From Dehalococcoidia bacterium (lineage in GTDB: Bacteria > Chloroflexota > Dehalococcoidia > Bin125), in contig OZ242281.1 in assembly GCA_965207365.1 (NCBI GenBank), positions 2,173,331 through 2,237,330 on the forward strand: a DNA stretch of 64,000 nt. Reading direction: 5' to 3'. Every line of letters starts with the position of its first letter. The stretch's first letter is position 1. The position numbers and the translations under genes were made by a program. Below are positions 4,671 through 53,997 of this stretch, piece after piece. Below the pieces are notes generated by a model. It was not told the DNA's origin. It was given only the letters and a program-made list of their open reading frames with translations, and ran no database searches.

Positions 4671-4743
4671 CGACTGGAGGTCATGTAGCGCAGCTTATTG
4701 GTGAAGGGCAACGGGGATGCAGAAGGACGCCCGCTGCCTGCGG

Positions 4744-4776
4744 CATCTCCCCCTGCGAGGGGGAGAGCGGAGTGAC
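4744..4776. repeat. solo arm fragment of the MITE-like family
   Basis: catctccccctgcgagggggagagcggagtgac matches the terminal arm (catctccccccgcaagggggggagagg) and core (actccgtgac, here as its reverse complement) of the elements at 14627, 29738 and 49343. Confidence 0.5.
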
Positions 4777-4794: not shown

Positions 4795-4891
<97 letters not shown>

Positions 4892-5049: not shown

Positions 5050-5084
5050 GCCTTTGCTCGTTTCAATAGCCAGTTCGAATACTC

Positions 5085-5416
5085 CGTCATACCCGCGCTT
5101 GTCGCGGCTATCTCGCAGCTCACTCCACCACTATTGAGTCGGGACTGTCAGGGCCCACGCGCCCGGTCTCTTCCTTTCTGGCAAACGTACAGTTGGCTTC
5201 GAGATTCCCGCGGCAAGCGCGGGAATGACGAATCTGGAGGCCCTTACGTGAGGCTGTCTCAAAAGTCTCTATCCCCCGCTTCACGCGGGGGTCTGCTCGG
5301 CGTACGCGTCCAGATACCCGTCATACCCGCGCTTGCCGCGGGTATCTCGCCGAGCCCAGCGGGAAGGTCGGTGCACGACGCAGCGAGATTGCCGCGACGG
5401 AGTCCGGCAATGACGG
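5085..5416. repeat. REP-like palindromic unit cluster (5 units, both orientations)
   Basis: Units at 5085-5118, 5201-5230, 5271-5292, 5319-5355 and 5386-5416. Consensus is GTCAT(A/T)CCCGCG-loop-CGCGGG(A/T)ATCTCGC or its reverse complement. Confidence 0.8.
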
Positions 5417-11134: not shown

Positions 11135-11283
11135 CGTCATTGCCGCGCTCCGACGCGGCAATCTCGCAGGGTACAACTCCGACGTTTGTATCCGTGGAGC
11201 GTCGCCTGGCTCCCCCCCAGCCACCTTCTAACTAACGTGCAGCGCGCTGCGAGATACCCGCGCCGGAGTGCGGGTATGACGGA
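11135..11283. repeat. REP-like palindromic units (two, opposite orientation)
   Basis: cgtcattgccgcgctccgacgcggcaatctcgcag (11135-11169) and gcgagatacccgcgccggagtgcgggtatgacgg (11249-11283). Confidence 0.75.
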
Positions 11284-14605: not shown

Positions 14606-14823
14606 CGTCATTCCAGCGGCAAGCGGAGGCCTTTGAAAAACTCCCCTTCTCCCCCCTTGCGGGGGAGATGCCGAAGGCAGAGGGGGGGGTCCGCTGTTCA
14701 GGAGCCCTATCTGGTCATCATCAGCCGTCCCCCCTCTGTCACTCCGTGACATCTCCCCCCGCAAGGGGGGGAGAGGGGATTCGGGAGTTTTGCAAAGGCC
14801 TCCGACAAGCGCGGGCATGACGG
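14606..14823. mobile_element. MITE-like palindromic element, copy 1 (core 14627-14801) inside a REP-like hairpin
   Basis: Imperfect terminal inverted arms of ~45-50 nt (aggcctttgaaaaactcccc..ccttgcgggggagatg / catctccccccgcaaggggggg..ttttgcaaaggcct). Near-identical copies at 29738-29931 and 49343-49515. Confidence 0.7.
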
Positions 14824-19913: not shown

Positions 19914-20004
19914 GGGATCAGCCTATCTCTCCCGGATGGCAGACATGTCGAGTGGGTTTCCATCTGAACACCTATAGCCGCGCAACTTCCGATTGGAGCA
20001 CTCC

Positions 20005-20269
20005 ATGACGGAGCAGACGCAGTGGCGACAGCGACGCCGCCGGCTCAGTCGCCGCGAACTGTTGCAGGCATCGGTTCGTGCTGGAGTGGACACATCCGGA
20101 TCACGGGCTCGCCGACATCTCACCAACTCCCGGCGTGATGAACGGGATCGCGCCGTCAATCTGGTGGCCGTTCATCGATCGGGGCGAAGACACCTTGCAG
20201 TTCGCCCACTCCTCACATCGCATGGACGATACCTGTATCGACGTCACACATCCGGACTATCCCGCTTGA
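20005..20269 (+). pseudogene. internally deleted, frameshifted remnant of a family-5 SBP paralog
   Basis: Frame 1 gives MTEQTQWRQRRRRLSRRELLQASVRAGV (the Tat leader of the paralog family). This joins out of frame to ..THPDHGLADISPTPGVMNGIAPSIWWPFIDRGEDTLQFAHSSHRMDDTCIDVTHPDYPA, the last ~60 codons of the full-length SBPs. Confidence 0.75.
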
Positions 20270-20402
20270 TTGCCTGCGCCCACAGTGCGCGCTCCGTTTT
20301 GCTCGTTCAGCGATTGTTCTTGAGCTTCCTGCAGCGCTGTGATATACGCACTATCTTACCTGCATCCATAGTCAATCGGCATGGACGCAAGGAGACGCAC
20401 TA

Positions 20403-22358: not shown

Positions 22359-22410
22359 GTCGTCTCGGCCCCGTTCGGACTAACAGGCGGACCAACTGGT
22401 GGACCAACAA

Positions 22411-22440
22411 AGGGCGACTTCGGTCGCCCTCTGTTGTGTA
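22411..22440 (+). terminator. intrinsic terminator-like hairpin after SBP1
   Basis: agggcgac-ttcg-gtcgccct (8-bp stem) followed by ctgttgtgt. Confidence 0.55.
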
Positions 22441-22441
22441 G

Positions 22442-22472
22442 TTGGCGCAAAGTGCGTATTGACAGCTACACT
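22442..22472 (+). promoter_or_regulatory. candidate promoter of SBP2 (TTGGCG-N19-TACACT)
   Basis: The same TTGGCG / GCTACACT pair with identical 19-nt spacing occurs upstream of SBP3. A related pair with 26-nt spacing occurs upstream of SBP4. Confidence 0.3.
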
Positions 22473-22515
22473 CGATCAACCTCTCTCAAGAGGATGAGCG
22501 ACCAGGAGGAATCAG

Positions 22516-24552: not shown

Positions 24553-24666
24553 CCAATCTCTACGACCAATGGCTCGGCTGCTCACCACGCTCGCTGTTTC
24601 GGCAGCGTGCGAGGCGGGTGAGCAGTCGGGCGCTCGGCGCCGCATTCGACCGCTCGTGTGAAGCAG

Positions 24667-24697
24667 TTGGCGTGTCAGGCGTCGTTTCGCTTACACT
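24667..24697 (+). promoter_or_regulatory. candidate promoter of SBP3 (TTGGCG-N19-TACACT)
   Basis: See 22442-22472; the motifs and spacing are conserved. Confidence 0.3.
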
Positions 24698-24739
24698 CTG
24701 CCAATCTGCACCTCCAATGTCGGAGCAAGGAGCTTCTGT

Positions 24740-26752
24740 ATGACCGAACGGAACTACTGGCAACGAATCCGTCGAAACCGTCTGAGTCGTCGTGATTTGT
24801 TGCGTGCGTCGGGACGCGCCGGCGTAGGCGCAGCAGGGTTGGCCCTGGTCGGTTGCGGTGGCGATGACGACGACAGCATCGCGCAGGTTGAGCAACAACA
24901 GCAGCAGCAACAACAGGCGATGCAGCAGGGCCAGCAGCAACAGCAGCAGGCGATGCAGTCGCAGCAACAACAGCAGCAGTCGCAGCAGGGCCAATCTGCT
25001 GACCAGACCGCACAGCAGGCTGACCAGCAGGAGCAAACAGCCGACGATGCCGACGATCAGCAAGCGCAACAGGCTGCGGTCAGCCAGGTCGTGCGCGGAG
25101 GGGACCTGCGATTCTCCACGCCGGCGGCAACCCACGACTACTTCGATCCGCACCGCGCCGTGTTCGGGCCGACTCAGTTCTGGATGGGGTTCTACATGAA
25201 CTACCTCATCCGCTGGCGCAACAAGGAACAGGGCATCATGGAGGCGGACGTCGCCTCGCTCCCGGAGGTTCCCGACGCGGAGACCTACATCTTCCGCATC
25301 GATCAGGGCGCGCGCTTCTGGGACCTGTACCCGACCGAAGGAGGTCGACTCGTTGACGCCGAAGACATTCGCGTAAATTTCCAACGTCAGATCGAAGCCG
25401 TGGATGCGAACGGAGCCGAGGACGGCACGTTCCTCGGCGCTTCATCATTCCGCAAGACGGCATCCATGGACGTGCCCGACGAGACGACGTTCGTGGCTAA
25501 GACTGCTGGCCCCGATGCAACCTGGATGGGCGTGCCATTGCGCCCCTTCAGTTGGGTCACGAGCCCTGAGGCGATCAATGAGTTTGGCGACCGCTGGCGT
25601 GACGAAGCGGGCAATGTCGAACTCTCCTCGGGCACCGGCATGTTCATTCCGCAGCGCTTCGATCCCGACATTGGGATCGACATGGTCCGCAACGAGAACT
25701 ACTGGAAGATGGGCGTCGACGGGCAGCCGCTGCCGTACTACGACACGGTCACGCTGTCCAACATCACCGACGCAACCGCGGTTGAAGCCGCTTATCGCAG
25801 CAAGGAGATCTTCAACGGCCGCTTCCCGCTGTCGTCGCTCCAGGCGGAGGGCATTCTGAACGATTTCCCCGATCACGGGCAAGGCACGGTGGCCTTCGGA
25901 TTCACGATCATCACCGGCGGCGCGAACTTCAATGCCGACTATCCAGGTGAAGACGGCCTGGGCAATCCCTGGATCGACCGCCGCTTCACGCAAGCGATGC
26001 ATGTCGCCGTTGACCGATATCTGATGATCGACACGGTCTATCTCGGTTCCGGAAAGCCCTCAGGCATGGGTGAGACGCCGTGGTACAACGCCTATTGGGC
26101 CATCCCGGAAGACGAACTGCTACAAACGCCCGGCTTCCGTCCCGACCGGGCGGTTGACATCGCCGAAGCTCGGGCGCTGTTTGACGCATCGGGCTACGAC
26201 CGCAGTCGTGGTCTGACGCTGATCGCACCCGATATCTGGGAAGGCACCTACCCGGGCATACTCGAGACCGAAGTCGGAATGTATCGCGAAGCGCTCGATC
26301 TCGAAGTCAGCTTCGACGTGCAGCCCTACACCGTCATTCTCCAGCGCTGGATCGAGGGCACCTACCCGGGACAGGGCCCGCAGTGGACCAACCCGCCGTC
26401 GGACCTCGATCCAACCACCTCGTACAACAACAACTACATTCCCGGCGGCAGCACGAACAACCTGGCGTACGAACATCCACGAATGACCGAAATCGCCGAA
26501 ACGATGACGGTCACTCTGGATCAGGAACAGCGTCAAGAGTTGGCGCAGGAAGCCCAGCGCATCCTGCTCGGCACGCATCCCGATTACGGACTCGATGGCG
26601 TTGCCAACAGCCCAGGCGTGATGAACGGTATCTCGCCAGTGCTGTGGTGGCCGTTCGTCAATCACGGCGACGACACGCTCCAGTTCGCCCACTCCAGCCA
26701 TCGGTACGACGAGTCCTGGATCGATGTCAACCACCCGGATTACCCGGCGTAA
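24740..26752 (+). CDS. ABC substrate-binding protein, family 5, Tat-lipoprotein, paralog 3
   Basis: Closest to paralog 1 (RFSTPAATHDYFDPHRAVFGPTQFWMGFYMNYLIRWRNKEQ). Same leader and lipobox, with a poly-Gln tether. Confidence 0.88.
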   Translation: MTERNYWQRIRRNRLSRRDLLRASGRAGVGAAGLALVGCGGDDDDSIAQVEQQQQQQQQAMQQGQQQQQQAMQSQQQQQQSQQGQSADQTAQQADQQEQTADDADDQQAQQAAVSQVVRGGDLRFSTPAATHDYFDPHRAVFGPTQFWMGFYMNYLIRWRNKEQGIMEADVASLPEVPDAETYIFRIDQGARFWDLYPTEGGRLVDAEDIRVNFQRQIEAVDANGAEDGTFLGASSFRKTASMDVPDETTFVAKTAGPDATWMGVPLRPFSWVTSPEAINEFGDRWRDEAGNVELSSGTGMFIPQRFDPDIGIDMVRNENYWKMGVDGQPLPYYDTVTLSNITDATAVEAAYRSKEIFNGRFPLSSLQAEGILNDFPDHGQGTVAFGFTIITGGANFNADYPGEDGLGNPWIDRRFTQAMHVAVDRYLMIDTVYLGSGKPSGMGETPWYNAYWAIPEDELLQTPGFRPDRAVDIAEARALFDASGYDRSRGLTLIAPDIWEGTYPGILETEVGMYREALDLEVSFDVQPYTVILQRWIEGTYPGQGPQWTNPPSDLDPTTSYNNNYIPGGSTNNLAYEHPRMTEIAETMTVTLDQEQRQELAQEAQRILLGTHPDYGLDGVANSPGVMNGISPVLWWPFVNHGDDTLQFAHSSHRYDESWIDVNHPDYPA

Positions 26753-26808
26753 CGACCAACGACGTTCCAGCGTCTACTGGACCAGACGCCAACTGATCGG
26801 GAGCAGCG

Positions 26809-28434
26809 ATGCAGCGATACCTCATCCAACGCCTGATCCTTGTGATCCCGACCCTGTGGTTGGTGATCTCGCTCCTTTTCCTGGCGCTGCGCGCGCTGCC
26901 TGGCGACTTTGTCACACGGAAACTCTCGAACCTGGAGAATCAGGGCGCGGAACAGCGTGAATCGGAGATCGTTGGATACATCGAAGTCACCGACACGACG
27001 CATCGCGTGATCTCGGGCGACACGCTGGAGAAGATCGCGACCAACAACAACACGTCGGTGTCGGCGCTGCTTGCGCAGAATCCTGACTTGGACACCTCGG
27101 GCGAGCTGCGACCGGGTACGAGAGTCACGGTGATTCCCGGTCAGTTACTCGAGGCGATTTCAATTGGACAGAGCATTGCTTTGCCTGAAGAAGTCGAACA
27201 AGGAGTGCAACTCCTGATCGACCGCAACCCCGATGTCAACTTCCCGCTGTATCAGGGCAAGCCGTATGCCGAGGCGGGGTCGGTTCTGGTCATCCGCGAC
27301 AGCTTGACGCTCGATGAGTTAGCGCACGTCAATCGCATTGATGCGAGCGACATCCTGGCGGTGAATCCAACCGGTAGCGCCAGTAATCCCGACGGCAATC
27401 TATCGGCCGATACGCAATTGCTGCCAACGGCGCTAGTGGTCACCGATGAAGGTGACACCCTGGAGCAGATTGCCGTTGCCTACGGTCGCGATCTAGAAGA
27501 AATGACTACAGCGAACCGGGGCATTGATCCGGCTGAGCCACTAGAAGCCGGAGTCGCGATCCACGTCCCATCCGACCGGATCGTCACGCCAACCACCAAG
27601 ATTACCGAGGCCAACATCAGGCACCGCCTGGGCATCGATAAGGGGCTCGGCACCCAGTACATCGACTTCCTTTGGGAGACGGTGCGGTTGAAATTCCGTC
27701 CGTCGTTCCAGACCCAGGAGGGGTCGCTGGATATCTTCCTCCGAGCATTACCACGTACGTTGCATCTCAACGTGTACGCATTGATCGTGGCGCTGACCAT
27801 CGCGTTGCCGGTCGGCATCCTCTCGGCTATGCGTCAGGACCGCCCGCTGGACTATGCGCTGCGAGGGTTTGCCATCCTCGCACTGGCGGCGCCCTCCTTC
27901 TGGATCGCGACCATGATGATCTTCGTGGTCACGCCGGGCGGCATCTCGGATAGCGGGATCTGGTCGATCCCGCTGACCTCTGAGGAGGCGCGATCGGTGT
28001 TCACATCGTTCACCGGAGCGCTGGCGTTGTACACGATTCCTGCCGTCGCGGGCGGACTTGCCGCCGGCGCCGGTCTGATGCGGATTACGCGGTCCGAGTT
28101 GCTCGAAGTGCTGCGTCAGGACTACGTCCGCACCGCCTGGTCGAAGGGTCTGCGCGAGCGGACCGTGATCCGCCGACACGCGATGCGCAACGCCTTGGTC
28201 AATGTGATGAGCGTGCTCGGCTTGCAGGTGGCGGCCCTGGTTGGCGGCAACATCATCCTCGAGCTGCTATTCAACATTCCCGGCATCGGTTTGCTGCTGA
28301 TTCAGCGGATCAACCAGGCCGATCTGCCCGTCGTACAAACGATGGTCTTCTTCTTTGCGCTGTTCATCATCGTGGTGAACATCATCATCGACATTTCATA
28401 CGCGGTCATCGATCCGCGTATCCGCTTCGCCTAA
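26809..28434 (+). CDS. DppB/OppB-type ABC permease with LysM-like insert (B1)
   Basis: Canonical N-terminus and C-terminal half (EVLRQDYVRTAWSKGL EAA loop; DPRIRFA end). A ~260-aa insert after TM1 holds LysM-like segments. Confidence 0.85.
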   Translation: MQRYLIQRLILVIPTLWLVISLLFLALRALPGDFVTRKLSNLENQGAEQRESEIVGYIEVTDTTHRVISGDTLEKIATNNNTSVSALLAQNPDLDTSGELRPGTRVTVIPGQLLEAISIGQSIALPEEVEQGVQLLIDRNPDVNFPLYQGKPYAEAGSVLVIRDSLTLDELAHVNRIDASDILAVNPTGSASNPDGNLSADTQLLPTALVVTDEGDTLEQIAVAYGRDLEEMTTANRGIDPAEPLEAGVAIHVPSDRIVTPTTKITEANIRHRLGIDKGLGTQYIDFLWETVRLKFRPSFQTQEGSLDIFLRALPRTLHLNVYALIVALTIALPVGILSAMRQDRPLDYALRGFAILALAAPSFWIATMMIFVVTPGGISDSGIWSIPLTSEEARSVFTSFTGALALYTIPAVAGGLAAGAGLMRITRSELLEVLRQDYVRTAWSKGLRERTVIRRHAMRNALVNVMSVLGLQVAALVGGNIILELLFNIPGIGLLLIQRINQADLPVVQTMVFFFALFIIVVNIIIDISYAVIDPRIRFA

Positions 28435-28470
28435 CCGGGTGACTGCACCGGCTGACCGGGGAGGGGCAAC

Positions 28471-29709
28471 ATGAGTGATGACCGACAGTCTCAAACGCAA
28501 CTCGAGGAGTTCGCGCAGGCGCAGGGCCTGCGCGTTGAGGAACGCAGCTTTCTGCAGCTGCTTGGCCGCGCGTTGGTGTCATTTTTCCGGACTAAGCCAT
28601 TGGGCGCCGCTGGGCTGACGCTGGTTGTGGTCTGGTCGGTCATCGCCGTGGGGACGGTCGGTTCCGGCGGCGGTTGGTTGGGCTTGGGTCGTTACGACTC
28701 GCAGGATGTCTTCAAAGTCGCCAACGCCAACTTCGCCGACGACAAGATTGCCAACGAACTCGACGGCAAATCGGCTGATATCTCCGACAGCGAGCTTCGC
28801 GAGCTTCTGTTACAACCCGCCGTCTATGGCGATCTGGCTGAGCAGTCCGGTGTCCTTGACGACATGCTGGAGTACGTCGAAGGTCTGATCGCAAGCGGAA
28901 CGCTGCTGACTCACCTGGCGGAGTTCGACCCAGCCCAGATTGAGATCGTTGACGGCACGATCAACGATGTCGATGACTTGCTCGCGACCGGCACGAACAC
29001 GCCGCTGACAACGGCCTCGCTGCAAGGGCCCTCGGGCAAGCACTGGTTCGGCACCGACCGCGCGGGACACGACCTCTTCTCCCGGGTGACTGAAGGCGCG
29101 CGGTTGTCGCTCTACATTGGCTTCTTCGCCACGCTGATCGGTGTGGTCGCTGGAACAGCCATCGGACTCATTTCTGGCGCCCTGGGCGGCAACATCGACC
29201 TGGCGATCAACCGTCTGATGGACGCGCTGCTCTCCTTCCCGCCAATCGTGCTGTTGCTGTTGTTGCGCTCGGTGACGGAGCCATCTGCGCTGTGGGTGAC
29301 GTTGGCGCTCTCGGTGCTGGCTGTGGGGCCCGTCCAGCGGATTGTCCGCGGCGCGGTGATCGCACTGCGCGAGATGCCCTTTGTCGAGGCCGCCCGGACG
29401 GTCGGCGCGACGAACGCCCGAATCATGCTGATGCACATTCTGCCTAACATCGTTGCCCCGTTGATCGTGATCTTCTCGATCACCATCGGCGCGTTCATCC
29501 TCGCCGAGGCCGCGCTCAGCTTCCTCGGACTGGGCACGCTCGATGTCTCCTGGGGCAAGATGATCGCCGACGGTCGCCAGTTCATTGTGCAGTCGCCATG
29601 GACCTCGTTGTTCGCCGGCCTGGCGCTGACCAGCCTGGTGTTTGGCTTCAATGTCCTCGGCGATGCGCTGCGAGATGTCTTCGACCCGAGACTGCGTGGC
29701 AGCCGCTAG
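28471..29709 (+). CDS. DppC/OppC-type ABC permease with extended outside loop (C1)
   Basis: HWFGTDRAGHDLFSRV, EAA loop REMPFVEAARTVGATNARIM and GDALRDVFDPRLR. An insert of ~130-150 aa follows TM1. Confidence 0.85.
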   Translation: MSDDRQSQTQLEEFAQAQGLRVEERSFLQLLGRALVSFFRTKPLGAAGLTLVVVWSVIAVGTVGSGGGWLGLGRYDSQDVFKVANANFADDKIANELDGKSADISDSELRELLLQPAVYGDLAEQSGVLDDMLEYVEGLIASGTLLTHLAEFDPAQIEIVDGTINDVDDLLATGTNTPLTTASLQGPSGKHWFGTDRAGHDLFSRVTEGARLSLYIGFFATLIGVVAGTAIGLISGALGGNIDLAINRLMDALLSFPPIVLLLLLRSVTEPSALWVTLALSVLAVGPVQRIVRGAVIALREMPFVEAARTVGATNARIMLMHILPNIVAPLIVIFSITIGAFILAEAALSFLGLGTLDVSWGKMIADGRQFIVQSPWTSLFAGLALTSLVFGFNVLGDALRDVFDPRLRGSR

Positions 29710-29737
29710 CCGGATACCCGCTGGGCACCGCTCCAGG

Positions 29738-29931
29738 AGGCCTTTGAAGAACTCCCCTTCTCCCCCCTTGCGGGGGAGATACCGAAAGCCTGCCCCTGGC
29801 CTGAACAGGGGGCAGAGTGGGGTCCGCTGTTTGGCAGCCATATCTGGTCATCATCCGCCCCCCCTCTGTCACTCCGTGACATCTCCCCCCGCAAGGGGGG
29901 GAGAGGGGATTCGGGAGCTTTTCCAAGGTCT
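29738..29931. mobile_element. MITE-like palindromic element, copy 2
   Basis: Same arms and core as copy 1, bracketed by complementary REP-like arms (ggatacccgctggg ... cccagcgcgggtatc). Lies between C1 and SBP4. Confidence 0.7.
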
Positions 29932-29966
29932 CCCCAGCGCGGGTATCACCAAAACAACGGCGCCCC

Positions 29967-30004
29967 TTGGCGAATGTTCCACTGGACGCCTTGTACGCTA
30001 CACT
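29967..30004 (+). promoter_or_regulatory. candidate promoter of SBP4 (TTGGCG-N26-TACACT)
   Basis: Same two hexamers as upstream of SBP2 and SBP3 but with longer spacing, so weaker. Confidence 0.2.
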
Positions 30005-30054
30005 TTCACAACCATCGACGCGCGTCCGCCGCGCTTCTGAAGGAGCGAGAACTG

Positions 30055-32064
30055 ATGACCGAACGTAACTATTGGCAGCGCATGAAGCGCAATCGGCTTA
30101 GTCGCAGAGATCTGTTGCGAGCCTCAGGTCGGGCTGGCGTTGGAGCCGCCGGCCTGGCTCTGGTCGGTTGTGGTGACGATGACGACGATGCTCAGCCAGC
30201 GGCTGCTTCCCGTCAGCAGGACCAGCAGCAGGACCAGCAAGAGGTCATGCAGCAACAGCAGCAGGACCAGCAGCAACAGGCGATGCAGCAGCAGGATCAG
30301 CAGCAGCAAGCCGAGCAGACCGCTGCCGCTGCCGATCAACAGGACCAGCAGCAACAGCAGGCGATGCAGCAACAGCAGCAGCAATCCGGCGACCTCCGCT
30401 CGTACGGCGGCACGCTGCGCTTCTCAACTCCTGCCGCCACGCACGACTTCTTCGACCCGCACCGCGGCGTCTTCGGCCCCACCCAGTACTGGATGGGGTT
30501 CTACATGAACTACATGATCCGCTGGGCCTCGAAAGAGGGCGGGATCATGGAAGCGGACATCACATCTCTGCCCGAGACGCCCGATGCCGAGACGTACATC
30601 TTCAACGTCGACCGCGGCGCCCGCTACTGGGACCAATACCCGACCGAGGGCGGTCGTGATGTCACCGCCAGCGATATTGTGATCAACTTCGACCGCCAGA
30701 TCGCCGCGCTCGACGCCGAAGGCAACCCCGACGCGCGATTCCGCGGCCAGGACGCCTTCAAGAAAACCGCCTCGCACGAAGCGGTTGACGAGACGACCTT
30801 CGTCGCTAAGACTGCAGGTCCCGACGCGACCTATCTCGGTGGCACCATCCTGCGACCCTTCTCCTGGATCACCTCGCCGGAGGGCATCCAGGAGTTCGGT
30901 ACTCGCTGGCGCGACGAGACCGCAAACGTCGAACTCTCCTCCGGCACGGGCCCGTTCATCCCGCAGACCTTCGACCCGGATATCGGCATCTACCTGGAAC
31001 GCAACTCCAACTACTGGAAGGACGGTCCCGACGGCCAGCAGCTTCCCTACCCGGACGCCGTTGAGTTCGTCAACCTGACCGATGCGACCGCAGTCGACGC
31101 GGCATACCGCGGCAAGGGCATCGACATCGGCGGGTTCCCGCTGTCTTCGGTGCAGGTCGAAGAGCTGACCGGCGACTTCCCCGACCACCCGGTCGAGGAA
31201 GGCGCATTCGGCTTCACGATCGTCACCGTCATGGGCACATATGAGCCCGGCTGGGAAGGCTCGGACGGGCAGGGGAACCCATACCTCGACCGTCGTTTCG
31301 CCTACGCGATGCAGGTTGCGGTCGACCGCGACCTGTTGATCGACGCCGTCTACCTGGGCGCGGCCAAGCCGTCGGCGACCCACTTCTGTCCATGGTTCAG
31401 CCAGTACTGGACCGTTCCGCCCGAGGAGCTGCGCACGGTTCCGGGCTTCCGCCTCGACCGCGATGCCGACATCGCACTCTGCCGCGAACTGATCGAAGCC
31501 TCCGGCTTCGACAAGGACCGCACGGTGACGATCTACATCCCCGACCTCTGGGAGCAGACCTACCCGGGTATCACCGAGACCACGCGCAACATGTACGCCG
31601 AGGCGACCGGCATCAACGTCGAGCTGGACATCCAGCCCTACACCGTGATGCAGGACCGCTACGACAACAAGACGTTCCCCGGCCGGGCGCCGACCTGGAC
31701 CAACCCGCCGGCCGACCTCGACCCGACGGCGCAGTTCACCCTGTCGCTGAAGGTTGGTGGCGCGTCGAACCTGACGCAGTACAGCTACCAGCCGGTTGAG
31801 GACATCGTTGACACGATGTCAGTCACGCTTGACACCGAGCAGCGCCGCGACATGGCGCTGGAGGTGCAGCGGATCGGCCTTGGCGTTGACGAGGAACACG
31901 GCCTTGAAGGCATCTTCGGCTGGTTTGGCGTCATGAATGGCATCGCGCCAACCATCTGGTGGCCGTATGTCAACCGACCCGACGACACCTGGCAGTTCGC
32001 GCACGACTCGCACAACTGGGACACCGTTTGGATGGACAGCAGCCACCCGGACTTCCCGGCCTAG
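30055..32064 (+). CDS. ABC substrate-binding protein, family 5, Tat-lipoprotein, paralog 4
   Basis: Starts at internal ATG 30055 preceded by AAGGAG. Leader MTERNYWQRMKRNRLSRRDLLRASGRAGVGAAGLALVGCGDDDDD, with a Gln/Asp tether. Confidence 0.88.
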   Translation: MTERNYWQRMKRNRLSRRDLLRASGRAGVGAAGLALVGCGDDDDDAQPAAASRQQDQQQDQQEVMQQQQQDQQQQAMQQQDQQQQAEQTAAAADQQDQQQQQAMQQQQQQSGDLRSYGGTLRFSTPAATHDFFDPHRGVFGPTQYWMGFYMNYMIRWASKEGGIMEADITSLPETPDAETYIFNVDRGARYWDQYPTEGGRDVTASDIVINFDRQIAALDAEGNPDARFRGQDAFKKTASHEAVDETTFVAKTAGPDATYLGGTILRPFSWITSPEGIQEFGTRWRDETANVELSSGTGPFIPQTFDPDIGIYLERNSNYWKDGPDGQQLPYPDAVEFVNLTDATAVDAAYRGKGIDIGGFPLSSVQVEELTGDFPDHPVEEGAFGFTIVTVMGTYEPGWEGSDGQGNPYLDRRFAYAMQVAVDRDLLIDAVYLGAAKPSATHFCPWFSQYWTVPPEELRTVPGFRLDRDADIALCRELIEASGFDKDRTVTIYIPDLWEQTYPGITETTRNMYAEATGINVELDIQPYTVMQDRYDNKTFPGRAPTWTNPPADLDPTAQFTLSLKVGGASNLTQYSYQPVEDIVDTMSVTLDTEQRRDMALEVQRIGLGVDEEHGLEGIFGWFGVMNGIAPTIWWPYVNRPDDTWQFAHDSHNWDTVWMDSSHPDFPA

Positions 32065-32092
32065 ACCGGGTCCAGTAGACGATGAGTTCTCT

Positions 32093-32115
32093 GCTCCCCC
32101 CATCGCGGGGGGAGC
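32093..32115 (+). terminator. intercistronic GC hairpin between SBP4 and permease B2 (attenuator/mRNA-stabiliser candidate)
   Basis: gctcccccc-atcgc-ggggggagc: 9-bp stem, no U-tract. Confidence 0.4.
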
Positions 32116-42715: not shown

Positions 42716-43810
42716 ATGGCGTACGAGTTGAGGCTCTCCCATCACTCAGATGACGAGCGAACGCTGCGGGCCTTAGACGCAATAGAGCGAAGGCGCGAGA
42801 TTGCGCGAGCGCTCGTGCCAGCGGGTTATGAGGCGTATTTCCAGGATCAGGCACGATTTCTCAGCGCGCACACCACGGTGTCCATCGAAGGGAACCGCTT
42901 GGACTATCAGTCCGTGCAAGTAGCTCTGCTGCATGAGTCAACCGACCCCAACCGGCGAGAAGCGAAGAATGCGGTGGAAGCCTACGAATTCGCGGGCGAG
43001 ATGGCTCAGGATCCCAACCTGCACATCGATTCTGGACTGATGCGGACCTTCAACTCATTCTTGCTCAAAGGACTACCAGGCCGTGTCGGCAGTGAGCGAG
43101 GCCGCTATCGACCAGGTGGCGCCTTGATTCAGGACAGCGTCACCGGGCAGATCAACTACTACGCGCCACCGCCACAATGGGTGGCGGACCTTATACGCTC
43201 TCTCGAGCTTGGGATCAGTGAGTGGATGCAGACGGATCCTCCAGAAATTGCTGCTGCCAAGTCGCATTTCGGCTTGATCAGCATCCACCCGTTTTTCGAC
43301 GGCAACGGTCGCACAGCACGACTCATCGCCGACCTCGTTCTAAACATGACCAACCGCTCTGCTGAAGGCATGCTGTCGATCAGCGGGGTTCTGCTCAAGC
43401 GCCGAGCGGAATACTACGAAGCGCTTCGCACCTCGCAAGGTCCTGAGTTCACGGAGCACGTTGACGTCACCGAGTTTGTCCGATTCCACACAGAGTCGCT
43501 CGCAACTGCAGTTACTGAGCTGGAGGAGAGGACGAGAGTAATGGACATGAGGCGAATTGCATTAGAGCGGGCATACCTAGAGGTACTGAACCCACGCCGT
43601 CTCATTGGCCTGCTTTACCTCTTCGACATTGGCCCGCTGTCGACTTCAGCGTATGCGCGCTTTGCCGGCTGCTCTCAGCAAACCGCACTATCGGACCTGA
43701 ATGAACTCACCGAAGCCTCAGTGGTCGAGCGTCTCGGCAGAGCTTCGGCTACGCGATATGAGCTCACGCGCGCTGCGAAAGCACTGATCGAGGGCGTGGA
43801 CCGGGTCTGA
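42716..43810 (+). CDS. Fic-family AMPylase-type protein with N-terminal inhibitory motif and C-terminal wHTH-like region
   Basis: Active site HPFFDGNGRTARL. TVSIEGN fits the (S/T)xxxE(G/N) inhibitory helix. The C-terminus (TALSDLNELTEASVVERLGRASATRY) looks wHTH-like. Confidence 0.85.
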   Translation: MAYELRLSHHSDDERTLRALDAIERRREIARALVPAGYEAYFQDQARFLSAHTTVSIEGNRLDYQSVQVALLHESTDPNRREAKNAVEAYEFAGEMAQDPNLHIDSGLMRTFNSFLLKGLPGRVGSERGRYRPGGALIQDSVTGQINYYAPPPQWVADLIRSLELGISEWMQTDPPEIAAAKSHFGLISIHPFFDGNGRTARLIADLVLNMTNRSAEGMLSISGVLLKRRAEYYEALRTSQGPEFTEHVDVTEFVRFHTESLATAVTELEERTRVMDMRRIALERAYLEVLNPRRLIGLLYLFDIGPLSTSAYARFAGCSQQTALSDLNELTEASVVERLGRASATRYELTRAAKALIEGVDRV

Positions 43811-43855: not shown

Positions 43856-46492
43856 ATGATGACCAGCACTGACTCACATCTCCTCGACGGCGTTCGCGTG
43901 ATTGAGATTGGAGACGAAGTCTCCGCCTATGCCTGCAAGCTACTGGCCGGGCTTGGCGCTGACGTGATCAAGGTTGAACCGCCGGAAGGCTGCTCGACAC
44001 GCAACATCGGACCCTTCTACGAGGATGAGCCGGGTCCGGAACGGTCGCTGTATTGGTGGCACTACAGCATCGGCAAGCGCTCGGTCACGCTCGACTTCGA
44101 GTCGGAGGACGGTCGTTCGTCGCTGCTGACTCTGTTCAAGACGGCCGACCTCTTCCTCGATGCACGATCCAAGAACGACATCGACGCCTACGGCCCTGAT
44201 GAAGACGTCATTCGTCAAGCGAACCCGGATATCGTGATTGCTCGCATGTCACCCTTCGGTGATTCTGGACCGTGGGCTGAGTATCGAGGCTCGGACCTCG
44301 TGCACCTGGCGCTCGGTGGGCCGATGATGAACTGCGGCTACGACCCGCAGCCGGATGGCACCTACGACACTCCGCCAATCGCGCCGCAGATGTGGCAGGC
44401 GTACCACATCGCCGGCGAGCTGACCTGCATGAATGCCATCGCGGCACTGATTGATCGTCACCGATCGGGTCGCGCCCAAACGTTGCACACCGCCGTCCAC
44501 GACGCGGTAGCCAAGAACACCGAGCTCGATCTGATGAGCTGGGTCTACCGACGCGCCCGCTACTTCCGCCAGACTTGCCGACACGCCGCCGAGGTCGTCA
44601 CGCCGCTGCCGATGATCGGTCCGACCAAGGACGGACGCTGGGTCATGGCGCTGCCTCGCGGACGCTCGCAATCGCTGATCGACTTCCTCGACGACTACGA
44701 CATGTCCGCCGACCTCAAGGAAACGCCGCCAGAGACGGGCGGAGCCAGCACCAGGTCGAGAGGCGAAACAGCGGCGCATTTGCAAGAGGTCTCGCAACGC
44801 CTAATCCGCAAGTTCCGTTTCGAGGACGTGCCCTGGCGAGATGCGCAGGACCTCGGACACCTCTGGGCGCCGCTGCGCAAGCCGCACGAGAACGCCCTCG
44901 ATCCTCACTGGTGGGAACGAGGCAGTTTCGCCAAGGTTGAACATCCTGAACACGTAGTCGACGGCAAGCCAGCGGAATTCATCTATACCTCAAGCAAGTG
45001 GGTGTCGTCCGAGACCTCATGGAAGGTCGGCCCGCGCGCCCCGTTACTCGGCGAGCACAACGACGAAATCCTGGCAGATCTGAAACCAGATTCCCAGGCC
45101 GCTAGTTCTTCGCTCCCCCCCTTGCGGGGGGAGCTGCCGAAGGCTGAGGGGGGGTCCCTCTCCCGATGGGGAACCCCATTCCCCCTCGACGGTATCCGCA
45201 TCCTCGACTTCACCTGGTGGCTCGCTTCAGGCGGAGCTCCCCGATTCCTTTCCGCACTGGGTGCCGAGGACATCAAGGTCGAGTGGCATCAGAACATGGA
45301 CCTGCGCGTCGGCATGGCGCAGTTCCCGCAGGGCGGTCAGGCAGCTCGACAGGCGCTCGGCGTCAACGAGGGTCCGTTGCCGCCCGACAATTCCACAATC
45401 AACCGCTCCGGCCAGTTCAACGACTTCCACGCTGGACACCGCGGACTCTCGCTCAACCTGCGCGACCCGCGCGGCCTCGAGATCGCCAAGCAGCTCGTCG
45501 CAGTCAGCGACATCGTCGCCGAGGGCTTCTCGCCCGGCGTGATGGAGCGTTGGGGTCTCGGTTATGAGGTAATGAAGGAGATCAAGCCCGATATCATCTA
45601 CCTCTCGCAGTCGGGCATGGGACAGGTCGGCGTCTACGGTCGCTACCGCACCGTTGGACCGATTGCCGCCTCGTTCGCCGGGATCTCCGAGCTGTCCGGC
45701 CTGCCTGAACCCTACGCGCCCGCCGGCTGGGGCTACAGCTATCTCGACTGGTTCGGCGCCTACAACCTGGCCAATGCGATGATGGCCGCGCTCTACTACC
45801 GCTACCGCACCGGCAAAGGCCAGTGGATCGATTCTTCGCAGGTCGACGCGGGTATCTACCTGAACGGCACCTCGGTGCTCGAGTGGTCGGCCAACGGCAA
45901 GGTCTGGCAGCGCTACGGCAACCGCTCGCCTTACAAGCCGGCCGCGCCTCATGGCGCGTACCAGTGCCGCCACGACATCGAATCCAACGACCGCTGGATC
46001 GCCTTCGCCTGCTTCGACGAGCCCAACTGGCAGTCGCTGCGCCGGGTCATGGGAGACCCGGAATGGGCCGCCTCAGACCGCTTCGCCAGTCTCGCCGACC
46101 GTCTCCAACATCAGGACGAACTGGACCAGAGAATCGGCGAGTGGACCCGGCAGCACGACCGCTGGGACCTGATGCAGCGCCTGCAGGAAGCCGGAGTCGC
46201 CGCCGGAGTCTGCCAGGACGCGCAAGACCGATTCGAGGCCGACCCACAGCTCAGCCACCTCAACTGGCTGACCGAGGTCGAGCACTCAGAAATGGGTCCC
46301 TGGCCAACCAAGGAAGTCCCCGTCAAGTGGAGCGAAACCCCACCATTCATGGGAGGCCCCATCGATCGAGGATCCCCGCTCTACGGAGAAGACAATCACT
46401 ACGTCTTAGGGGAGCTGCTGGGAATGAGCACGTCAGAGATTTCGCGCTTGGCGGATGACGGCGTGATCGCTGAGGATCTCACATCGGTGTGA
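43856..46492 (+). CDS. tandem fusion of two family-III (CaiB/BaiF) CoA-transferase modules
   Basis: Module 1 begins LDGVRVIEIGDEVSAYACKLLAGLGADVIKVEPPEG. Module 2 begins LDGIRILDFTWWLASGGAPRFLSALGAEDIKVEW. Each module is ~400 aa. Confidence 0.85.
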   Translation: MMTSTDSHLLDGVRVIEIGDEVSAYACKLLAGLGADVIKVEPPEGCSTRNIGPFYEDEPGPERSLYWWHYSIGKRSVTLDFESEDGRSSLLTLFKTADLFLDARSKNDIDAYGPDEDVIRQANPDIVIARMSPFGDSGPWAEYRGSDLVHLALGGPMMNCGYDPQPDGTYDTPPIAPQMWQAYHIAGELTCMNAIAALIDRHRSGRAQTLHTAVHDAVAKNTELDLMSWVYRRARYFRQTCRHAAEVVTPLPMIGPTKDGRWVMALPRGRSQSLIDFLDDYDMSADLKETPPETGGASTRSRGETAAHLQEVSQRLIRKFRFEDVPWRDAQDLGHLWAPLRKPHENALDPHWWERGSFAKVEHPEHVVDGKPAEFIYTSSKWVSSETSWKVGPRAPLLGEHNDEILADLKPDSQAASSSLPPLRGELPKAEGGSLSRWGTPFPLDGIRILDFTWWLASGGAPRFLSALGAEDIKVEWHQNMDLRVGMAQFPQGGQAARQALGVNEGPLPPDNSTINRSGQFNDFHAGHRGLSLNLRDPRGLEIAKQLVAVSDIVAEGFSPGVMERWGLGYEVMKEIKPDIIYLSQSGMGQVGVYGRYRTVGPIAASFAGISELSGLPEPYAPAGWGYSYLDWFGAYNLANAMMAALYYRYRTGKGQWIDSSQVDAGIYLNGTSVLEWSANGKVWQRYGNRSPYKPAAPHGAYQCRHDIESNDRWIAFACFDEPNWQSLRRVMGDPEWAASDRFASLADRLQHQDELDQRIGEWTRQHDRWDLMQRLQEAGVAAGVCQDAQDRFEADPQLSHLNWLTEVEHSEMGPWPTKEVPVKWSETPPFMGGPIDRGSPLYGEDNHYVLGELLGMSTSEISRLADDGVIAEDLTSV
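45111..45160. repeat. MITE-family fragment embedded in-frame in the CoA-transferase linker
   Basis: ctcccccccttgcggggggagctgccgaaggctgagggggggtcc matches MITE copy 1 (ctccccccttgcgggggagatgccgaaggcagaggggggggtcc). It encodes SLPPLRGELPKAEGGS. Confidence 0.7.
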
Positions 46493-46498: not shown

Positions 46499-47194
46499 CT
46501 ACAGCTGAAGCGCCAACTGTTCAGGCTCCCGCTCGGAGCTTGTCTCCGCTAGCTCCAAGTGCACTTGGATCGCCTCGAGGAGCGCGGCTTCTGAGTCAAC
46601 GATGGTCACTAGTTCCTGCGACACAAACTGATCGAGATGTTGGCGGCCGATTTCAGGTTTCGACCAACCGATCACGACTGGCATCTGCCGCTTGACCGCC
46701 TTCTTGATCGCGTCGAGCGTGCCGCCCTTTTCGCCGGGATCGACCGCGACCAGGACGCGGCCAAGCGCGCAGATCGTATCGTTGCGCTGCATCGCTCGCC
46801 ATACGGTCCATCGGGCATTCGACTCGAACTGTGAGACCACAGTGAGATGGTCGCGAATGTCGTCCCATGGTTCTATGGCTGCCTGTAGTTCGCGCCGCGG
46901 TCTGAACTTGTCCGGAAGTCCCTCCGCCAGTACCGCGATTGTGTGTCCACCAGCGGCGACGCATGCCACATGGCCAGCCATATCGACTCCCCTAGCGTAT
47001 CCGCTGACGAGGGGCAGATTCAATTCGGCCGCGAAAGAGCCTGCTGCTCTTGCGAACTCAATGCCCCGCTCTCCAGCGGCGCGAGAGCCACACAGGGCTA
47101 TACCGGGATCGTTTAGACGCTCTATCTGACCGAAGACTGCCAGATTGCCAAGTGAGCCCGCACGGATTGAAGTAGTGGAATCTGTTGTGGTCAT
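46499..47194 (-). CDS. shosA: DprA/Smf-fold (SLOG) protein, ShosA-like antitoxin candidate
   Basis: LVSGYARGVDMAGHVACVAAGGHTIAVLAEGL...MQRNDTICALGRVLVAVDPGEKGGTLDAIKKAV matches the DprA Rossmann core. No SAM or DML1 domains. Lies 11 nt downstream of the PRTase gene. Confidence 0.6.
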   Translation of the reverse strand: MTTTDSTTSIRAGSLGNLAVFGQIERLNDPGIALCGSRAAGERGIEFARAAGSFAAELNLPLVSGYARGVDMAGHVACVAAGGHTIAVLAEGLPDKFRPRRELQAAIEPWDDIRDHLTVVSQFESNARWTVWRAMQRNDTICALGRVLVAVDPGEKGGTLDAIKKAVKRQMPVVIGWSKPEIGRQHLDQFVSQELVTIVDSEAALLEAIQVHLELAETSSEREPEQLALQL

Positions 47195-49303: not shown

Positions 49304-49342
49304 CAGAGTTCTCCTGATTGTGTCTCAGTCCCCGCTCTACGG

Positions 49343-49515
49343 AGACCTTCGAAAAACTTCCGAATCCCCTCTCCCCCCCCTTGCGGGGGGAGATGTCACG
49401 GAGTGACAGAGGGGGGGCGGCGGATGATGACCTGATAGGGCTCCCGAACAGCGGGCCCCCCCTCCGCCTTCGGCATCTCCCCCGCAAGGGAGGAGAAGGG
49501 GAGTTTTCAAAGGTC
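49343..49515. mobile_element. MITE-like palindromic element, copy 3 (inverted relative to copies 1 and 2)
   Basis: Reverse complement of the copy 1/2 sequence, bracketed by gtccccgct / agcggggac arms. Sits between two paralogous hydrolase genes. Confidence 0.7.
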
Positions 49516-49578
49516 TCCGCAAAGCGGGGACTGGAAAGCTCGATGTTTGAGCCACCCTCTCAAGTGCGCGTCTAGCTG

Positions 49579-53702: not shown

Positions 53703-53855
53703 TGTGGGCTCCATTCGGCTGCGTTCCAGGATCGGCAAGTGCGTCGCAAGGCTAACAGTCGGCAAGGTGGTCCGAAGGGGGTGGTGCGAAGGCGTGGTCC
53801 GAAGGCGTGGTGCGAATGACTCTTGCCGATAGAGACTGATGAATAACCTCTCAAC

Positions 53856-53997
53856 CGCCCCCGCCCCCGAGCGGGGGCCCGCTCCTTCCCCGGCCCCGGC
53901 GCGGGGGCCATTCTTACGCCTCGTATCTGGTCATCCGTAGCCAGTCGGTGCTGCCGTGGACCAGCCAGAGCGGGTCCCCGCTCGGGGGCGGGGACGG
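53856..53997. repeat. variant palindromic element related to the MITE family
   Basis: Inverted arms of ~30 nt: ccgcccccgcccccgagcgggggcccgctc / gagcgggtccccgctcgggggcggggacgg. The centre, tatctggtcatc, is shared with the MITE core. Confidence 0.6.

What the first reader, a model, noticed from the sequence alone, without database searches (positions are those of the whole stretch)
45111..45160. The interdomain linker of the CoA-transferase fusion is a fragment of the MITE family read in frame
45113-45157 (ctcccccccttgcggggggagctgccgaaggctgagggggggtcc) is nearly identical to the left arm and core of MITE copy 1 (14651-14700). It is translated as ..SSSLPPLRGELPKAEGGSLSRW.. exactly where the stop, intergenic spacer and start of two adjacent genes would be expected.

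This looks like gene fusion mediated by, or exaptation of, a mobile repeat. There is a caveat. The segment contains C7, G6 and G7 homopolymers, which are classic indel-error sites. They are also slippage-prone in vivo, so the fusion could be an artefact or could switch between fused and split states.
Basis: seen in the sequence. Interest (0 to 1): 0.66.

Follow-up and report, generated by a model that had tools for sequence, protein, structure and literature searches.

The report
Mobile repeat translated in enzyme linker
A 45-base copy of a widespread hairpin repeat sits in frame in the floppy linker of an anciently fused two-domain CoA-transferase; the repeat did not create the fusion, related bacteria carry other repeats at the same spot, and the repeat family appears tied to a little-studied nuclease gene (DUF559).

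Summary
Window 45113-45157 is an intact copy of a ~42-nt repeat unit that also forms both arms of three ~200-nt intergenic composites in the window. It is read in frame as LPPLRGELPKAEGGS in the linker of an 878-aa double family-III CoA-transferase.

- The fusion is ancient. Repeat-free fused homologues occur across phyla, so the repeat did not make it.
- It is not an indel artefact. An independent assembly, 92% identical across the gene, has the same C7/G6/G7 runs.
- A split state is not viable.

New findings:
- At least 23 of 36 Dehalococcoidia orthologues carry repeat-derived linkers of at least four kinds and both orientations. These do not follow the gene tree.
- The unit has the anatomy of a class II intrastrand triplex motif (BoxC/PIT/TM type), with a mini-hairpin as its second loop.
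- The unit occurs across phyla and sits in frame in MnmE, FtsY, an S9 peptidase, a terminase and a methyltransferase.
- Such motifs bracket DUF559 nuclease genes as inverted ends in 63 of 80 loci.

Most likely it is a tolerated passenger in a disordered linker. The link to DUF559 as a mobility gene is inferred, not shown.

The parts
43856..46492 (+). Gene for an 878-aa fusion of two family-III (CaiB/BaiF) CoA-transferase domains
   Evidence: ORF. Pfam PF02515 matches twice, E 8e-138. More than 100 full-length fused homologues. AlphaFold2 model has pTM 0.92.
45077..45166 (+). Interdomain linker, residues about 408-437, predicted disordered coil
   Evidence: DSSP shows coil for 408-434. Mean pLDDT is 49 for residues 411-420 and 56 for 421-430. 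This is the hypervariable column block in the alignment of 120 homologues.
45113..45157 (+). Solo repeat unit read in frame as LPPLRGELPKAEGGS (residues 420-434)
   Evidence: Identical in the independent assembly L069. Nearly identical to the left terminal unit of a DUF559 cassette in a related genome, L219.
45113..45121 (+). Pyrimidine arm CTCCCCCCC (Y domain), preceded by G at 45112, which pairs with C at 45134
45126..45133 (+). Purine arm GGGGGGAG (R domain), Watson-Crick partner of the Y arm, after loop TTGC (45122-45125)
   Evidence: DNA fold. Triplex-code detector.
45134..45145 (+). Second loop CTGCCGAAGGCT holding the mini-hairpin GCC-GAA-GGC
   Evidence: In the longer form of this hairpin, 100% of 140 cells are paired and 3 of 5 pairs show compensatory changes.
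45146..45154 (+). Second purine run GAGGGGGGG, the mirror image of the R arm (candidate reverse-Hoogsteen domain)
   Evidence: Mirror relation and the N/x/y linkage. Compare Holder 2015.
14606..14822 (+). Intergenic composite copy 1: two inverted units (14645-14687 +, 14729-14776 -) inside outer inverted arms
   Evidence: (I15).
29735..29943 (+). Composite copy 2: left unit interrupted by an insert, right unit 29859-29906 (-)
49326..49533 (-). Intergenic composite copy 3: units at 49371-49416 (+) and 49456-49498 (-)
   Evidence: (I22).
4734..4767 (-). Solo degenerate unit next to the tRNA genes

Best explanation
The 45 bases are a solo copy of a short structured repeat unit. Its layout is pyrimidine run, loop, complementary purine run, mini-hairpin, then a mirror-image purine run.

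The unit landed in the DNA that encodes the disordered linker of a CoA-transferase whose two halves were already fused. It may have arrived by insertion or by recombination.

It persists for two reasons. It has no stop codon in five of six frames, and the linker tolerates almost any sequence. The result is a harmless 15-residue passenger peptide.

The same linker has been colonised or overwritten repeatedly by related and unrelated repeats in sister lineages.

Shown: the identity of the unit, in-frame reading, the age of the fusion, confirmation in a second assembly, the turnover of linker states, and the predicted disorder of the linker.

Inferred: (i) that the peptide is neutral; (ii) that the unit folds on single-stranded DNA as a class II purine-motif intrastrand triplex, like E. 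coli BoxC/TM elements; (iii) that units of this architecture are the inverted ends of cassettes carrying a DUF559 (Vsr-like) nuclease gene, which may supply mobility, so that the ~200-nt composites and solo units would be non-autonomous derivatives.
For: - Identity and significance of the unit.
- The fusion predates the repeat.
- Independent assembly with an identical unit while the gene is 92% identical.
- Linker DNA of 36 orthologues: 23 hit repeats elsewhere in at least two loci, 11 hit none. Linker states are listed.
- Linker states do not follow the gene tree or flank identity.
- The unit is open in 5 of 6 frames.
- The linker is a low-confidence coil.
- Other in-frame hosts: MnmE, an S9 peptidase and a terminase; a methyltransferase in a complete isolate genome; FtsY in a Rhizobium plasmid.
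- Architecture: N/x/y linkage holds in 177 of 184 units; mirror variants; hairpin covariation; the published BoxC/TM triplex motif.
- DUF559 link: (63 of 80 loci; 119 units near gene ends against 29 elsewhere; p = 4e-49; orientation 50 and 45 against 13 and 11). The control gave 0.008 against 0.83 units per kb.
- L219, from the same clade, has the same subtype as both ends of a DUF559 gene.
- A deleted derivative lies next to a full copy in Haemophilus. E. coli ycjD shows a comparable arrangement.
- DUF559 genes are enriched among inversion targets.
- A homing-endonuclease relative is found in the PDB.
Against: - No empty-site/filled-site pair was recovered for the linker, so insertion was not separated from recombination, and no target-site duplication was seen.
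- Neutrality of the peptide is assumed from disorder and variability; it was not measured.
- Between two genomes whose genes differ by 8%, the unit has zero differences. That could hint at constraint or gene conversion.
- No DUF559 gene lies in the window. Most Dehalococcoidia units have none nearby.
- DUF559 has no demonstrated transposase or homing activity.
- A naive 6-mer test of mirror against direct repeats was not discriminating.
- Triplex formation has been shown only for the E. coli motif, which has 3-4-nt loops, not for this unit with its 12-nt second loop.
Confidence: 0.82

Rival explanations
1. The repeat created the fusion. It replaced the stop codon, spacer and start codon of two adjacent CoA-transferase genes.
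For: The repeat sits exactly at the domain junction.
Against: Fused proteins of about 850-940 aa with unrelated, repeat-free linkers occur in many phyla at 46-63% identity. Within the clade, 11 orthologues have linkers with no repeat hit.
Confidence: 0.03
2. The fusion or frame is an assembly or indel artefact at the C7/G6/G7 runs. The real locus would be two genes or a pseudogene.
For: Homopolymers are error-prone. One related MAG (L039) has Ns and odd homopolymers exactly at this point.
Against: An independent assembly has the same run lengths although the gene differs at 8% of sites. More than 30 orthologues are in frame across the linker. Any +1 or -1 change gives a truncated protein with no restart.
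Confidence: 0.02
3. The homopolymer tracts make the gene phase-variable, switching between a fused enzyme and an off or split state.
For: Three G/C runs of 6-7 nt lie within 42 nt. TM-type motifs are associated with local genome instability.
Against: Run lengths are identical in two diverged genomes. The tracts are shorter than typical contingency tracts (own knowledge). No viable split state exists. No frameshifted orthologue was seen.
Confidence: 0.03
4. The insert has been exapted. The structured G+C-rich DNA or mRNA, or the Pro/Gly/charged peptide, would be selected in this linker, for example to pause synthesis between the two interlocking domains or to set linker length.
For: Structured repeats recur in the same linker in most lineages. 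The unit is intact with zero substitutions against L069, and hairpin 1 is kept in L005 despite a changed loop. Linker length stays roughly constant in the single-unit state: 63 residues in the anchored span, as in repeat-free linkers.
Against: Repeat-free linkers are common and appear ancestral. The inserted families, their orientations and the resulting peptides differ completely. The region is predicted disordered. Degenerate copies exist in L012, L013, L015 and L029.
Confidence: 0.1
5. The similarity to the repeat is convergent low complexity in a Pro/Gly-rich linker.
For: The sequence is rich in C and G runs.
Against: The non-repetitive core AGCTGCCGAAGGCTGA is shared. A 26-nt pattern gave more than 104 exact-match stretches, including other phyla. 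Alignment score is 62 against a maximum of 28 in 2000 shuffles. HMM score equals that of intergenic copies.
Confidence: 0.01

Closest known systems
Rickettsia palindromic elements (RPEs) and other repeats fused internally into genes (RUP, BRE, Coxiella QMITE)
   Same: A short palindromic multi-copy element is inserted in frame in unrelated protein genes and adds a peptide at tolerated sites without destroying the protein. Here the hosts are the CoA-transferase linker, MnmE, FtsY, an S9 peptidase, a terminase and a methyltransferase.
   Different: The unit is much shorter (about 42 nt against about 105-150), has a different sequence and occurs across phyla. One and the same linker carries at least four different repeat states among close relatives. 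No sequence relationship to RPEs was tested or is expected.
BoxC / PIT / TM class II intrastrand triplex motifs (Hoyne et al. 2000; Holder et al. 2015, PMC4666352)
   Same: The domain order is the same: 5' pyrimidine run, complementary purine run, then a 3' purine run that mirrors it with G opposite G and A or T opposite A. The motifs are G+C-rich, multi-copy, often in inverted pairs, and sit at rearranged loci.
   Different: The stem sequence differs: CTCCCCCC/GGGGGGAG/GAGGGGGG here, against CCCTCTCCC/GGGAGAGGG/GGGTGAGGG. The second loop is a 12-18-nt mini-hairpin under its own structural constraint, outside the 1-6-nt loops searched by ITxF. Triplex formation of this unit is untested. In-frame genic copies and a DUF559 link do not appear in the passages of that paper that were searched (no hits for 'intragenic', 'within genes' or 'DUF559').
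REPtrons / REPINs (REP sequences with their RAYT transposase gene)
   Same: A small gene is bracketed by inverted copies of a structured repeat that is far more numerous elsewhere in the genome, often as inverted doublets.
   Different: The gene is DUF559 (Vsr-like PD-(D/E)xK fold), not a Y1 HUH transposase. The units lack the GTAG/CGTC tag. No activity is known.
RIME / BIME mosaic elements of rhizobia and enterobacteria
   Same: These are composites of several palindromic units in intergenic DNA. The same unit type, with mini-hairpin GCC-GGCA-GGC, is abundant on Rhizobiaceae replicons: 145 records and 436 places.
   Different: Whether this unit equals an annotated RIME, Sm-repeat or AB motif could not be checked because the original paper is not held.
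MITEs
   Same: The ~200-nt composites are short, multi-copy, intergenic, built of inverted arms and lack a gene. In Haemophilus an internally deleted derivative sits beside a full DUF559 cassette.
   Different: No target-site duplication and no canonical transposase were identified.

Membership tests
Family III CoA-transferase (CaiB/BaiF), fused two-domain form | Two CoA_transf_3 (PF02515) domains in one polypeptide | tested here: met
   (two stretches, E 8e-138). (full-length fused homologues). (pTM 0.92).
In-frame palindromic repeat of the RPE kind | The segment is a member of a multi-copy palindromic repeat family | tested here: met
In-frame palindromic repeat of the RPE kind | The reading frame of the host gene is kept, and the insert lies between or at the surface of domains | tested here: met
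   Other hosts.
In-frame palindromic repeat of the RPE kind | Orthologues without the insert exist | tested here: met
   (11 orthologous linkers with no repeat hit; all distant homologues).
Class II intrastrand triplex motif (BoxC/PIT/TM) | A 5' pyrimidine domain followed by a Watson-Crick complementary purine domain | tested here: met
   (CTCCCCCC / GGGGGGAG).
Class II intrastrand triplex motif (BoxC/PIT/TM) | A 3' domain that mirrors the purine domain under the code G*G-C, A*A-T or T*A-T | tested here: met
   (GAGGGGGG). Family-wide. Definition.
Class II intrastrand triplex motif (BoxC/PIT/TM) | Short loops (1-6 nt in ITxF; 0-10 nt in Hoyne et al.) | tested here: not met
   Loop 1 is 4 nt, but loop 2 is 12 nt (a mini-hairpin), and 14-18 nt in other copies. 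Criterion.
Class II intrastrand triplex motif (BoxC/PIT/TM) | Forms a triplex as single-stranded DNA (CD, NMR, footprinting) | not testable with these tools
   Shown only for the E. coli motif. The nearest-neighbour fold predicts only the two hairpins.
MITE | Short, gene-less, multi-copy, with terminal inverted repeats | tested here: met
   for the ~200-nt composites. The linker holds only one arm.
MITE | Target-site duplication | not tested
   No filled-site/empty-site pair was available. Flanks inspected by eye showed none.
MITE | Shares its ends with an autonomous element that encodes a transposase | tested here: inconclusive
   The ends are shared with DUF559 cassettes, but DUF559 is not a known transposase.
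REP / RAYT (REPtron) | A GTAG or CGTC tag at one end of the palindrome and a Y1 transposase partner | tested here: not met
   The unit carries no such tag. The partner gene is DUF559. Separate CGTC-tagged hairpins do exist in the window.

The most novel reading that the evidence does not exclude
The BoxC/PIT/TM-type triplex repeats of bacteria, including this unit, may be the terminal inverted repeats of a selfish cassette that encodes the DUF559 Vsr-like nuclease. They may also be gene-less derivatives of such cassettes. The origin and mode of spread of these repeats have been called unknown.

Under this reading, the nuclease (or host repair at the triplex-forming ends) spreads the units. The units can settle anywhere that tolerates them, including protein linkers. 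That would explain the recurrent colonisation of this CoA-transferase linker and the cross-phylum identity of the 26-nt core.
Probability: 0.35. Interest if true: 0.82.

Novelty: new variant of a known kind. Interest (0 to 1): 0.6.

Why it matters
For this gene, the result settles that the fusion is real, old and not made by the repeat. The odd linker is a translated piece of selfish or structured DNA.

More broadly, it is a clean natural experiment. One disordered linker has been hit or overwritten by at least four repeat types in both orientations among genomes whose flanking domains are 80-93% identical. This shows how interdomain linkers absorb mobile DNA and gain new peptide sequence.

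It also extends the BoxC/TM triplex-motif class in three ways: to a hairpin-looped variant that earlier searches could not see, to Chloroflexota symbionts, and to coding regions.

Finally, it gives a concrete, testable candidate (DUF559) for the missing mobility or maintenance gene of these repeats. Holder et al. 2015 stated that no such gene had been found.

Tried and rejected
- Rfam: no family covers the unit, in the window at gathering threshold or in eight loci at E <= 1.
- Phage collection: no match.
- A census of proteins carrying the unit peptide failed. The queries were too short, and a 48-aa concatenate found one 72-aa protein.
- A literal sequence search of the paper library found nothing.
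- The original RIME paper is not held, so identity with annotated rhizobial repeats is unresolved.
- A strict perfect-mirror detector under-called units.
- A naive 6-mer test of mirror against direct repeats around DUF559 genes was not discriminating: 28 mirror, 50 direct, 20 in the control. Tandem hairpins and symmetric runs explain this. It was replaced by detectors anchored on hairpin 2 and on the triplex code.
- The first MAFFT run timed out.
- Rejected: repeat-made fusion, artefact, a viable split state and low-complexity convergence (see the rival explanations).
- DUF559 is not generally adjacent to units in the Dehalococcoidia loci fetched by pattern; there was one extra hit. Most copies would therefore be non-autonomous.
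Full report
**1. What is there**

Window 45113-45157 reads ctcccccccttgcggggggagctgccgaaggctgagggggggtcc. It lies inside a single ORF, 43856..46492 (+), of 878 aa. That ORF has two family-III CoA-transferase domains (PF02515, E 8e-138). The segment is translated as LPPLRGELPKAEGGS, residues 420-434.

The window holds three ~200-nt composites, at 14606-14822, about 29735-29943 and 49326-49533. Each is built from two inverted copies of a ~42-nt unit. A solo degenerate unit lies at 4734-4767. Composites 1 and 3 lie between genes.

The linker segment aligns to the left unit of copy 1 with 39 of 43 identical columns. The score is 62, against 16.2 +/- 2.35 (maximum 28) in 2000 shuffles. A profile of 168 distinct units scores it at 40.1 bits, level with the best intergenic copy.

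**2. The fusion is old and real**

The 120 best homologues are, with one exception, 847-941 aa long and cover 97-100% of the query. They include proteins named by their sources as Myxococcota, Burkholderiales, Phytohabitans, Desertimonas and Bathyarchaeia.

A genome scan found 68 loci. They include full-length fused genes in Microbacterium, Streptomyces, Nocardia, Pseudonocardia, Reyranella and others, at 46-57% identity. In the alignment the two domains are well conserved and only the linker is hypervariable. Distant homologues have short repeat-free linkers. The repeat therefore did not make the fusion.

An independently assembled relative (L069, a 3.26-Mb contig) is 92.0% identical over the gene. 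It has exactly the same unit, including C7, G6 and G7. An indel artefact is therefore very unlikely.

A +1 slip in any of the runs stops translation at residue 430, at the TGA inside the unit. A -1 slip stops it at residue 561. The first in-frame ATG downstream is at 45296, beyond the conserved N-terminal motif of domain 2. A functional split state therefore does not exist.

AlphaFold2 models the protein as two well-packed domains (pTM 0.92, mean pLDDT 87.5). Residues 408-434 are coil. Mean pLDDT is 49 for residues 411-420 and 56 for 421-430.

**3. The linker is a recurrent landing pad**

I extracted the linker DNA of 36 Dehalococcoidia/Chloroflexota orthologues; many of the MAGs appear from their names to be sponge-derived. 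The linkers fall into the following states.

- A, repeat-free, of the type ..PPVLHSTNGTNG..ALSRWG: L008, L009, L016, L026, L032 and others.
- B, a single forward unit: the window, L069 and L005, with a degenerate copy in L029.
- C, a complete two-armed ~128-nt element in frame: L006 and L007. The left unit and its upstream bases tcttcg are the same as in the window.
- D, a different subtype read as PPLGEVSRSDGGG, followed by its inverted partner: L002-4, L028, L025, L017, L015 and L013.
- E, a unit in reverse orientation read as PPSAFGISPRGAGG: nine loci.
- F, an unrelated palindromic family read as VPAPERGPAP: L001 and L034. This family also occurs in the window at 53855-53997.
- G, a CGTC-type REP-like hairpin, judged by eye only: L030.

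An objective check used BLAST of each linker against all other fetched DNA with the linkers masked. In that check, 23 of 36 linkers hit repeats in at least two other loci, 2 hit one locus and 11 hit none.

The states do not follow the gene tree. In the flanking domains the window is as close to L001 (91.6/92.8% nucleotide identity) as to L069 (91.3/93.0%). Yet L001 carries family F, while L005-7, at 84-86%, share the window's type.

At least four independent acquisitions or replacements are needed to explain this. Insertion and gene conversion or recombination could not be told apart.

**4. Anatomy of the unit**

The layout is N-[CTC(n)]-loop1-[G(n)AG]-x-T-[mini-hairpin]-y-[GAG(n)].

The mini-hairpin occurs in a short form (GCC-GAA-GGC, as in the linker) and in a 5-bp form. 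Among 28 distinct 5-bp forms, all 140 cells are paired and 3 of 5 pairs show compensatory double changes. None of 500 shuffles reached the observed values.

The bases N, x and y are tightly linked: T/A/A in 118 units, G/C/T in 48, C/G/G in 11 and other combinations in 7, out of 184. The same hairpin variants occur within each type.

The two purine runs are mirror images of each other, including in rare variants. In unrelated taxa the second run equals the mirror of the first, with G opposite G and A or T opposite A. Examples are GGGGAAGG to GGAAGGGG, GGGAGAGGG to GGGTGAGGG and GGGAGAAGG to GGATGAGGG.

This is the definition of a class II purine-motif intrastrand triplex. It was described for E. 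coli BoxC/PIT/TM elements such as CCCTCTCCC-tgt-GGGAGAGGG-ccgg-GGTGAGGGC, and shown to form in vitro by CD and NMR (Holder et al. 2015, PMC4666352).

The present unit differs in stem sequence. It also has a 12-18-nt structured second loop, outside the 1-6-nt loops of that paper's search. Ordinary DNA folding predicts the two hairpins, at -17.1 kcal/mol and z = -2.0. Triplex formation by this unit is inferred, not shown.

**5. Distribution, and other genes that read the unit**

Of these, 77 were in the same Dehalococcoidia/Chloroflexota group. The other 27 were in Pasteurellaceae, Dialister, Paludibacteraceae, Flavobacteriaceae, Lentimicrobiaceae, Saprospiraceae, Abditibacteriales and Clostridia. 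About 0.03 such matches would be expected by chance in the whole collection (my own estimate).

A variant is abundant on Rhizobiaceae replicons: 145 records and 436 places. Rfam has no family for it, and no held paper contains the sequence.

The unit is open in 5 of 6 frames in the subtype found here, and in 6 of 6 in the intergenic subtype. It is read in frame in the following genes.

- The GTPase domain of MnmE in a Flavobacteriaceae MAG.
- An S9 peptidase, between the propeller and the catalytic domain.
- A phage-type terminase.
- A methyltransferase, just after its NPPF motif, in the complete genome of Aequorivita nionensis.
- The acidic N-terminal region of an annotated FtsY in Rhizobium sp. 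NLR16a.

This is the behaviour known from Rickettsia palindromic elements and a few other repeats.

**6. The link to DUF559**

In Aggregatibacter and Haemophilus, a DUF559 gene (PF04480) has a forward unit just upstream of its start. Its 3' end runs into a reverse unit, giving the tail ..PLSLRQLPP*. In Haemophilus an internally deleted, gene-less derivative sits right next to the full copy.

In a Dehalococcoidia genome of the same clade (L219, the genome that also supplied L004), a DUF559 gene is bracketed by inverted units of exactly the subtype found in the window's linker. Even the flanking bases TCGCTCCCC...GAGGGGGTCCC are shared.

I then fetched 80 DUF559 loci from many phyla. A triplex-code detector (stems of at least 7 nt with at least one T) found motifs within 200 nt of the gene ends in 63 of the 80.

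- 119 units lay near gene ends and 29 elsewhere, where 23% near would be expected (binomial p = 4e-49).
- Orientation was forward on the 5' side (50) and reverse on the 3' side (45), against 13 and 11 the other way.
- Control loci from other phyla gave 2 units in 243 kb, against 148 in 178 kb around DUF559 genes.

E. coli K-12 ycjD (DUF559) has a pyrimidine run at its stop codon. This is followed by a duplicated remnant of its own 3' end and then by TM no. 9 of Holder et al..

Three published observations bear on this.

- DUF559 genes are enriched (odds ratio 14.3) among targets of predicted programmed inversions.
- Relatives of known structure include a homing endonuclease of a mobile intron.
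- Holder et al. state that they never found mobility functions near TMs and that the origin of the motif is unclear.

No held paper links DUF559 or ycjD to these repeats.

My reading is that DUF559 cassettes are the gene-bearing form of this repeat class. Composites and solo units would then be derivatives. This is inference: no enzymatic activity is known, no DUF559 gene lies in the window, and part of the enrichment reflects the fact that such motifs are intergenic.

**7. Verdict**

The segment is an in-frame solo copy of a structured, probably mobile repeat unit, in the disordered linker of an anciently fused enzyme. Most likely it is a tolerated passenger. Exaptation is possible but unsupported. 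Artefact, repeat-made fusion and phase switching are rejected.

As a phenomenon it is a new variant of known kinds: in-frame palindromic repeats, and class II triplex motifs. The repeated colonisation of one linker and the DUF559 bracket are the parts worth following up.

Noticed in passing
window 49326-49533 and L069 15467-15692: The orthologous composite in the related genome has colinear flanks, but its inner ~140 nt match in the opposite orientation (86.8%). The core of the element has flipped between two strains. This fits recombination between its inverted arms.
   Followed up: partly
window 53855-53884 / 53968-53997; L001 and L034 linkers: A second, unrelated palindromic repeat family (CCGCCCCCGCCCCCGAGCGGGGGCCC..., I20) occurs in the window. 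It is read in frame as VPAPERGPAP in the CoA-transferase linker of two relatives.
   Followed up: partly
window 1389-1443, 5083-5137, 5200-5230, 5319-5349, 11135-11186, 14606-14645/14783-14822: These are REP-like hairpins of the CGTC-tagged type (CGTCATTCCCGCG...CGCGGGAATGACG, I5, I10, I11, I15, I17). They also form the outermost arms of composite copy 1. A similar sequence seems to sit in frame in the linker of L030; this was judged by eye only and had no BLAST support.
   Followed up: no
L176-L255 (80 DUF559 loci); E. coli K-12 1351039-1351760 (L256): DUF559 genes across many phyla are bracketed by inverted class II triplex motifs: 63 of 80 loci, p = 4e-49, with a control. E. coli ycjD has a duplicated remnant of its 3' end followed by a BoxC/TM element.
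   Followed up: yes
L095 (Haemophilus haemolyticus) about 4110-4330: Immediately downstream of a full DUF559 cassette lies a ~200-nt copy. It keeps both terminal units plus the first ~13 and last ~80 nt of the gene. This is an internally deleted, MITE-like derivative.
   Followed up: partly
plasmid collection, e.g. L174 (Rhizobium sp. NLR16a p3) 1501-1547; L175 (Shinella): The same unit type, with mini-hairpin GCC-GGCA-GGC, is abundant on Rhizobiaceae megaplasmids and chromids: 145 records and 436 places. It is read in frame in an annotated ftsY. Its relation to annotated RIME, Sm-repeat or AB motifs is unresolved.
   Followed up: partly
L079, L080, L100, L133 and L081, L121 (Dialister and Paludibacteraceae): Units in these gut-associated genomes from two phyla share conserved flanks beyond the unit, such as gtaagtttacacc...tagcggtatacttc. 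This suggests a larger shared element or a contamination issue.
   Followed up: no
window 4734-4767 (-) and tRNA genes 4795-4883, 4960-5046: A solo degenerate unit lies 28 nt upstream of two tRNA genes.
   Followed up: no
window about 20000-32100: Four paralogous solute-binding-protein genes each carry a CAG-rich (polyglutamine-like) stretch (D1-D8). They sit next to paralogous permease genes (D9-D12, D16, D20).
   Followed up: no
L039 (RHO1_bin_20) about 4300-4540: The CoA-transferase gene of this MAG has Ns and aberrant homopolymers exactly in the linker. The repeat breaks short-read assembly there.
   Followed up: no
window 42716-43810 and 46499-47194; L069 gene table: The CoA-transferase gene is flanked by a Fic-domain gene upstream and a DprA-like (DNA_processg_A) gene downstream. 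Two beta-lactamase-family paralogues surround composite copy 3.
   Followed up: no
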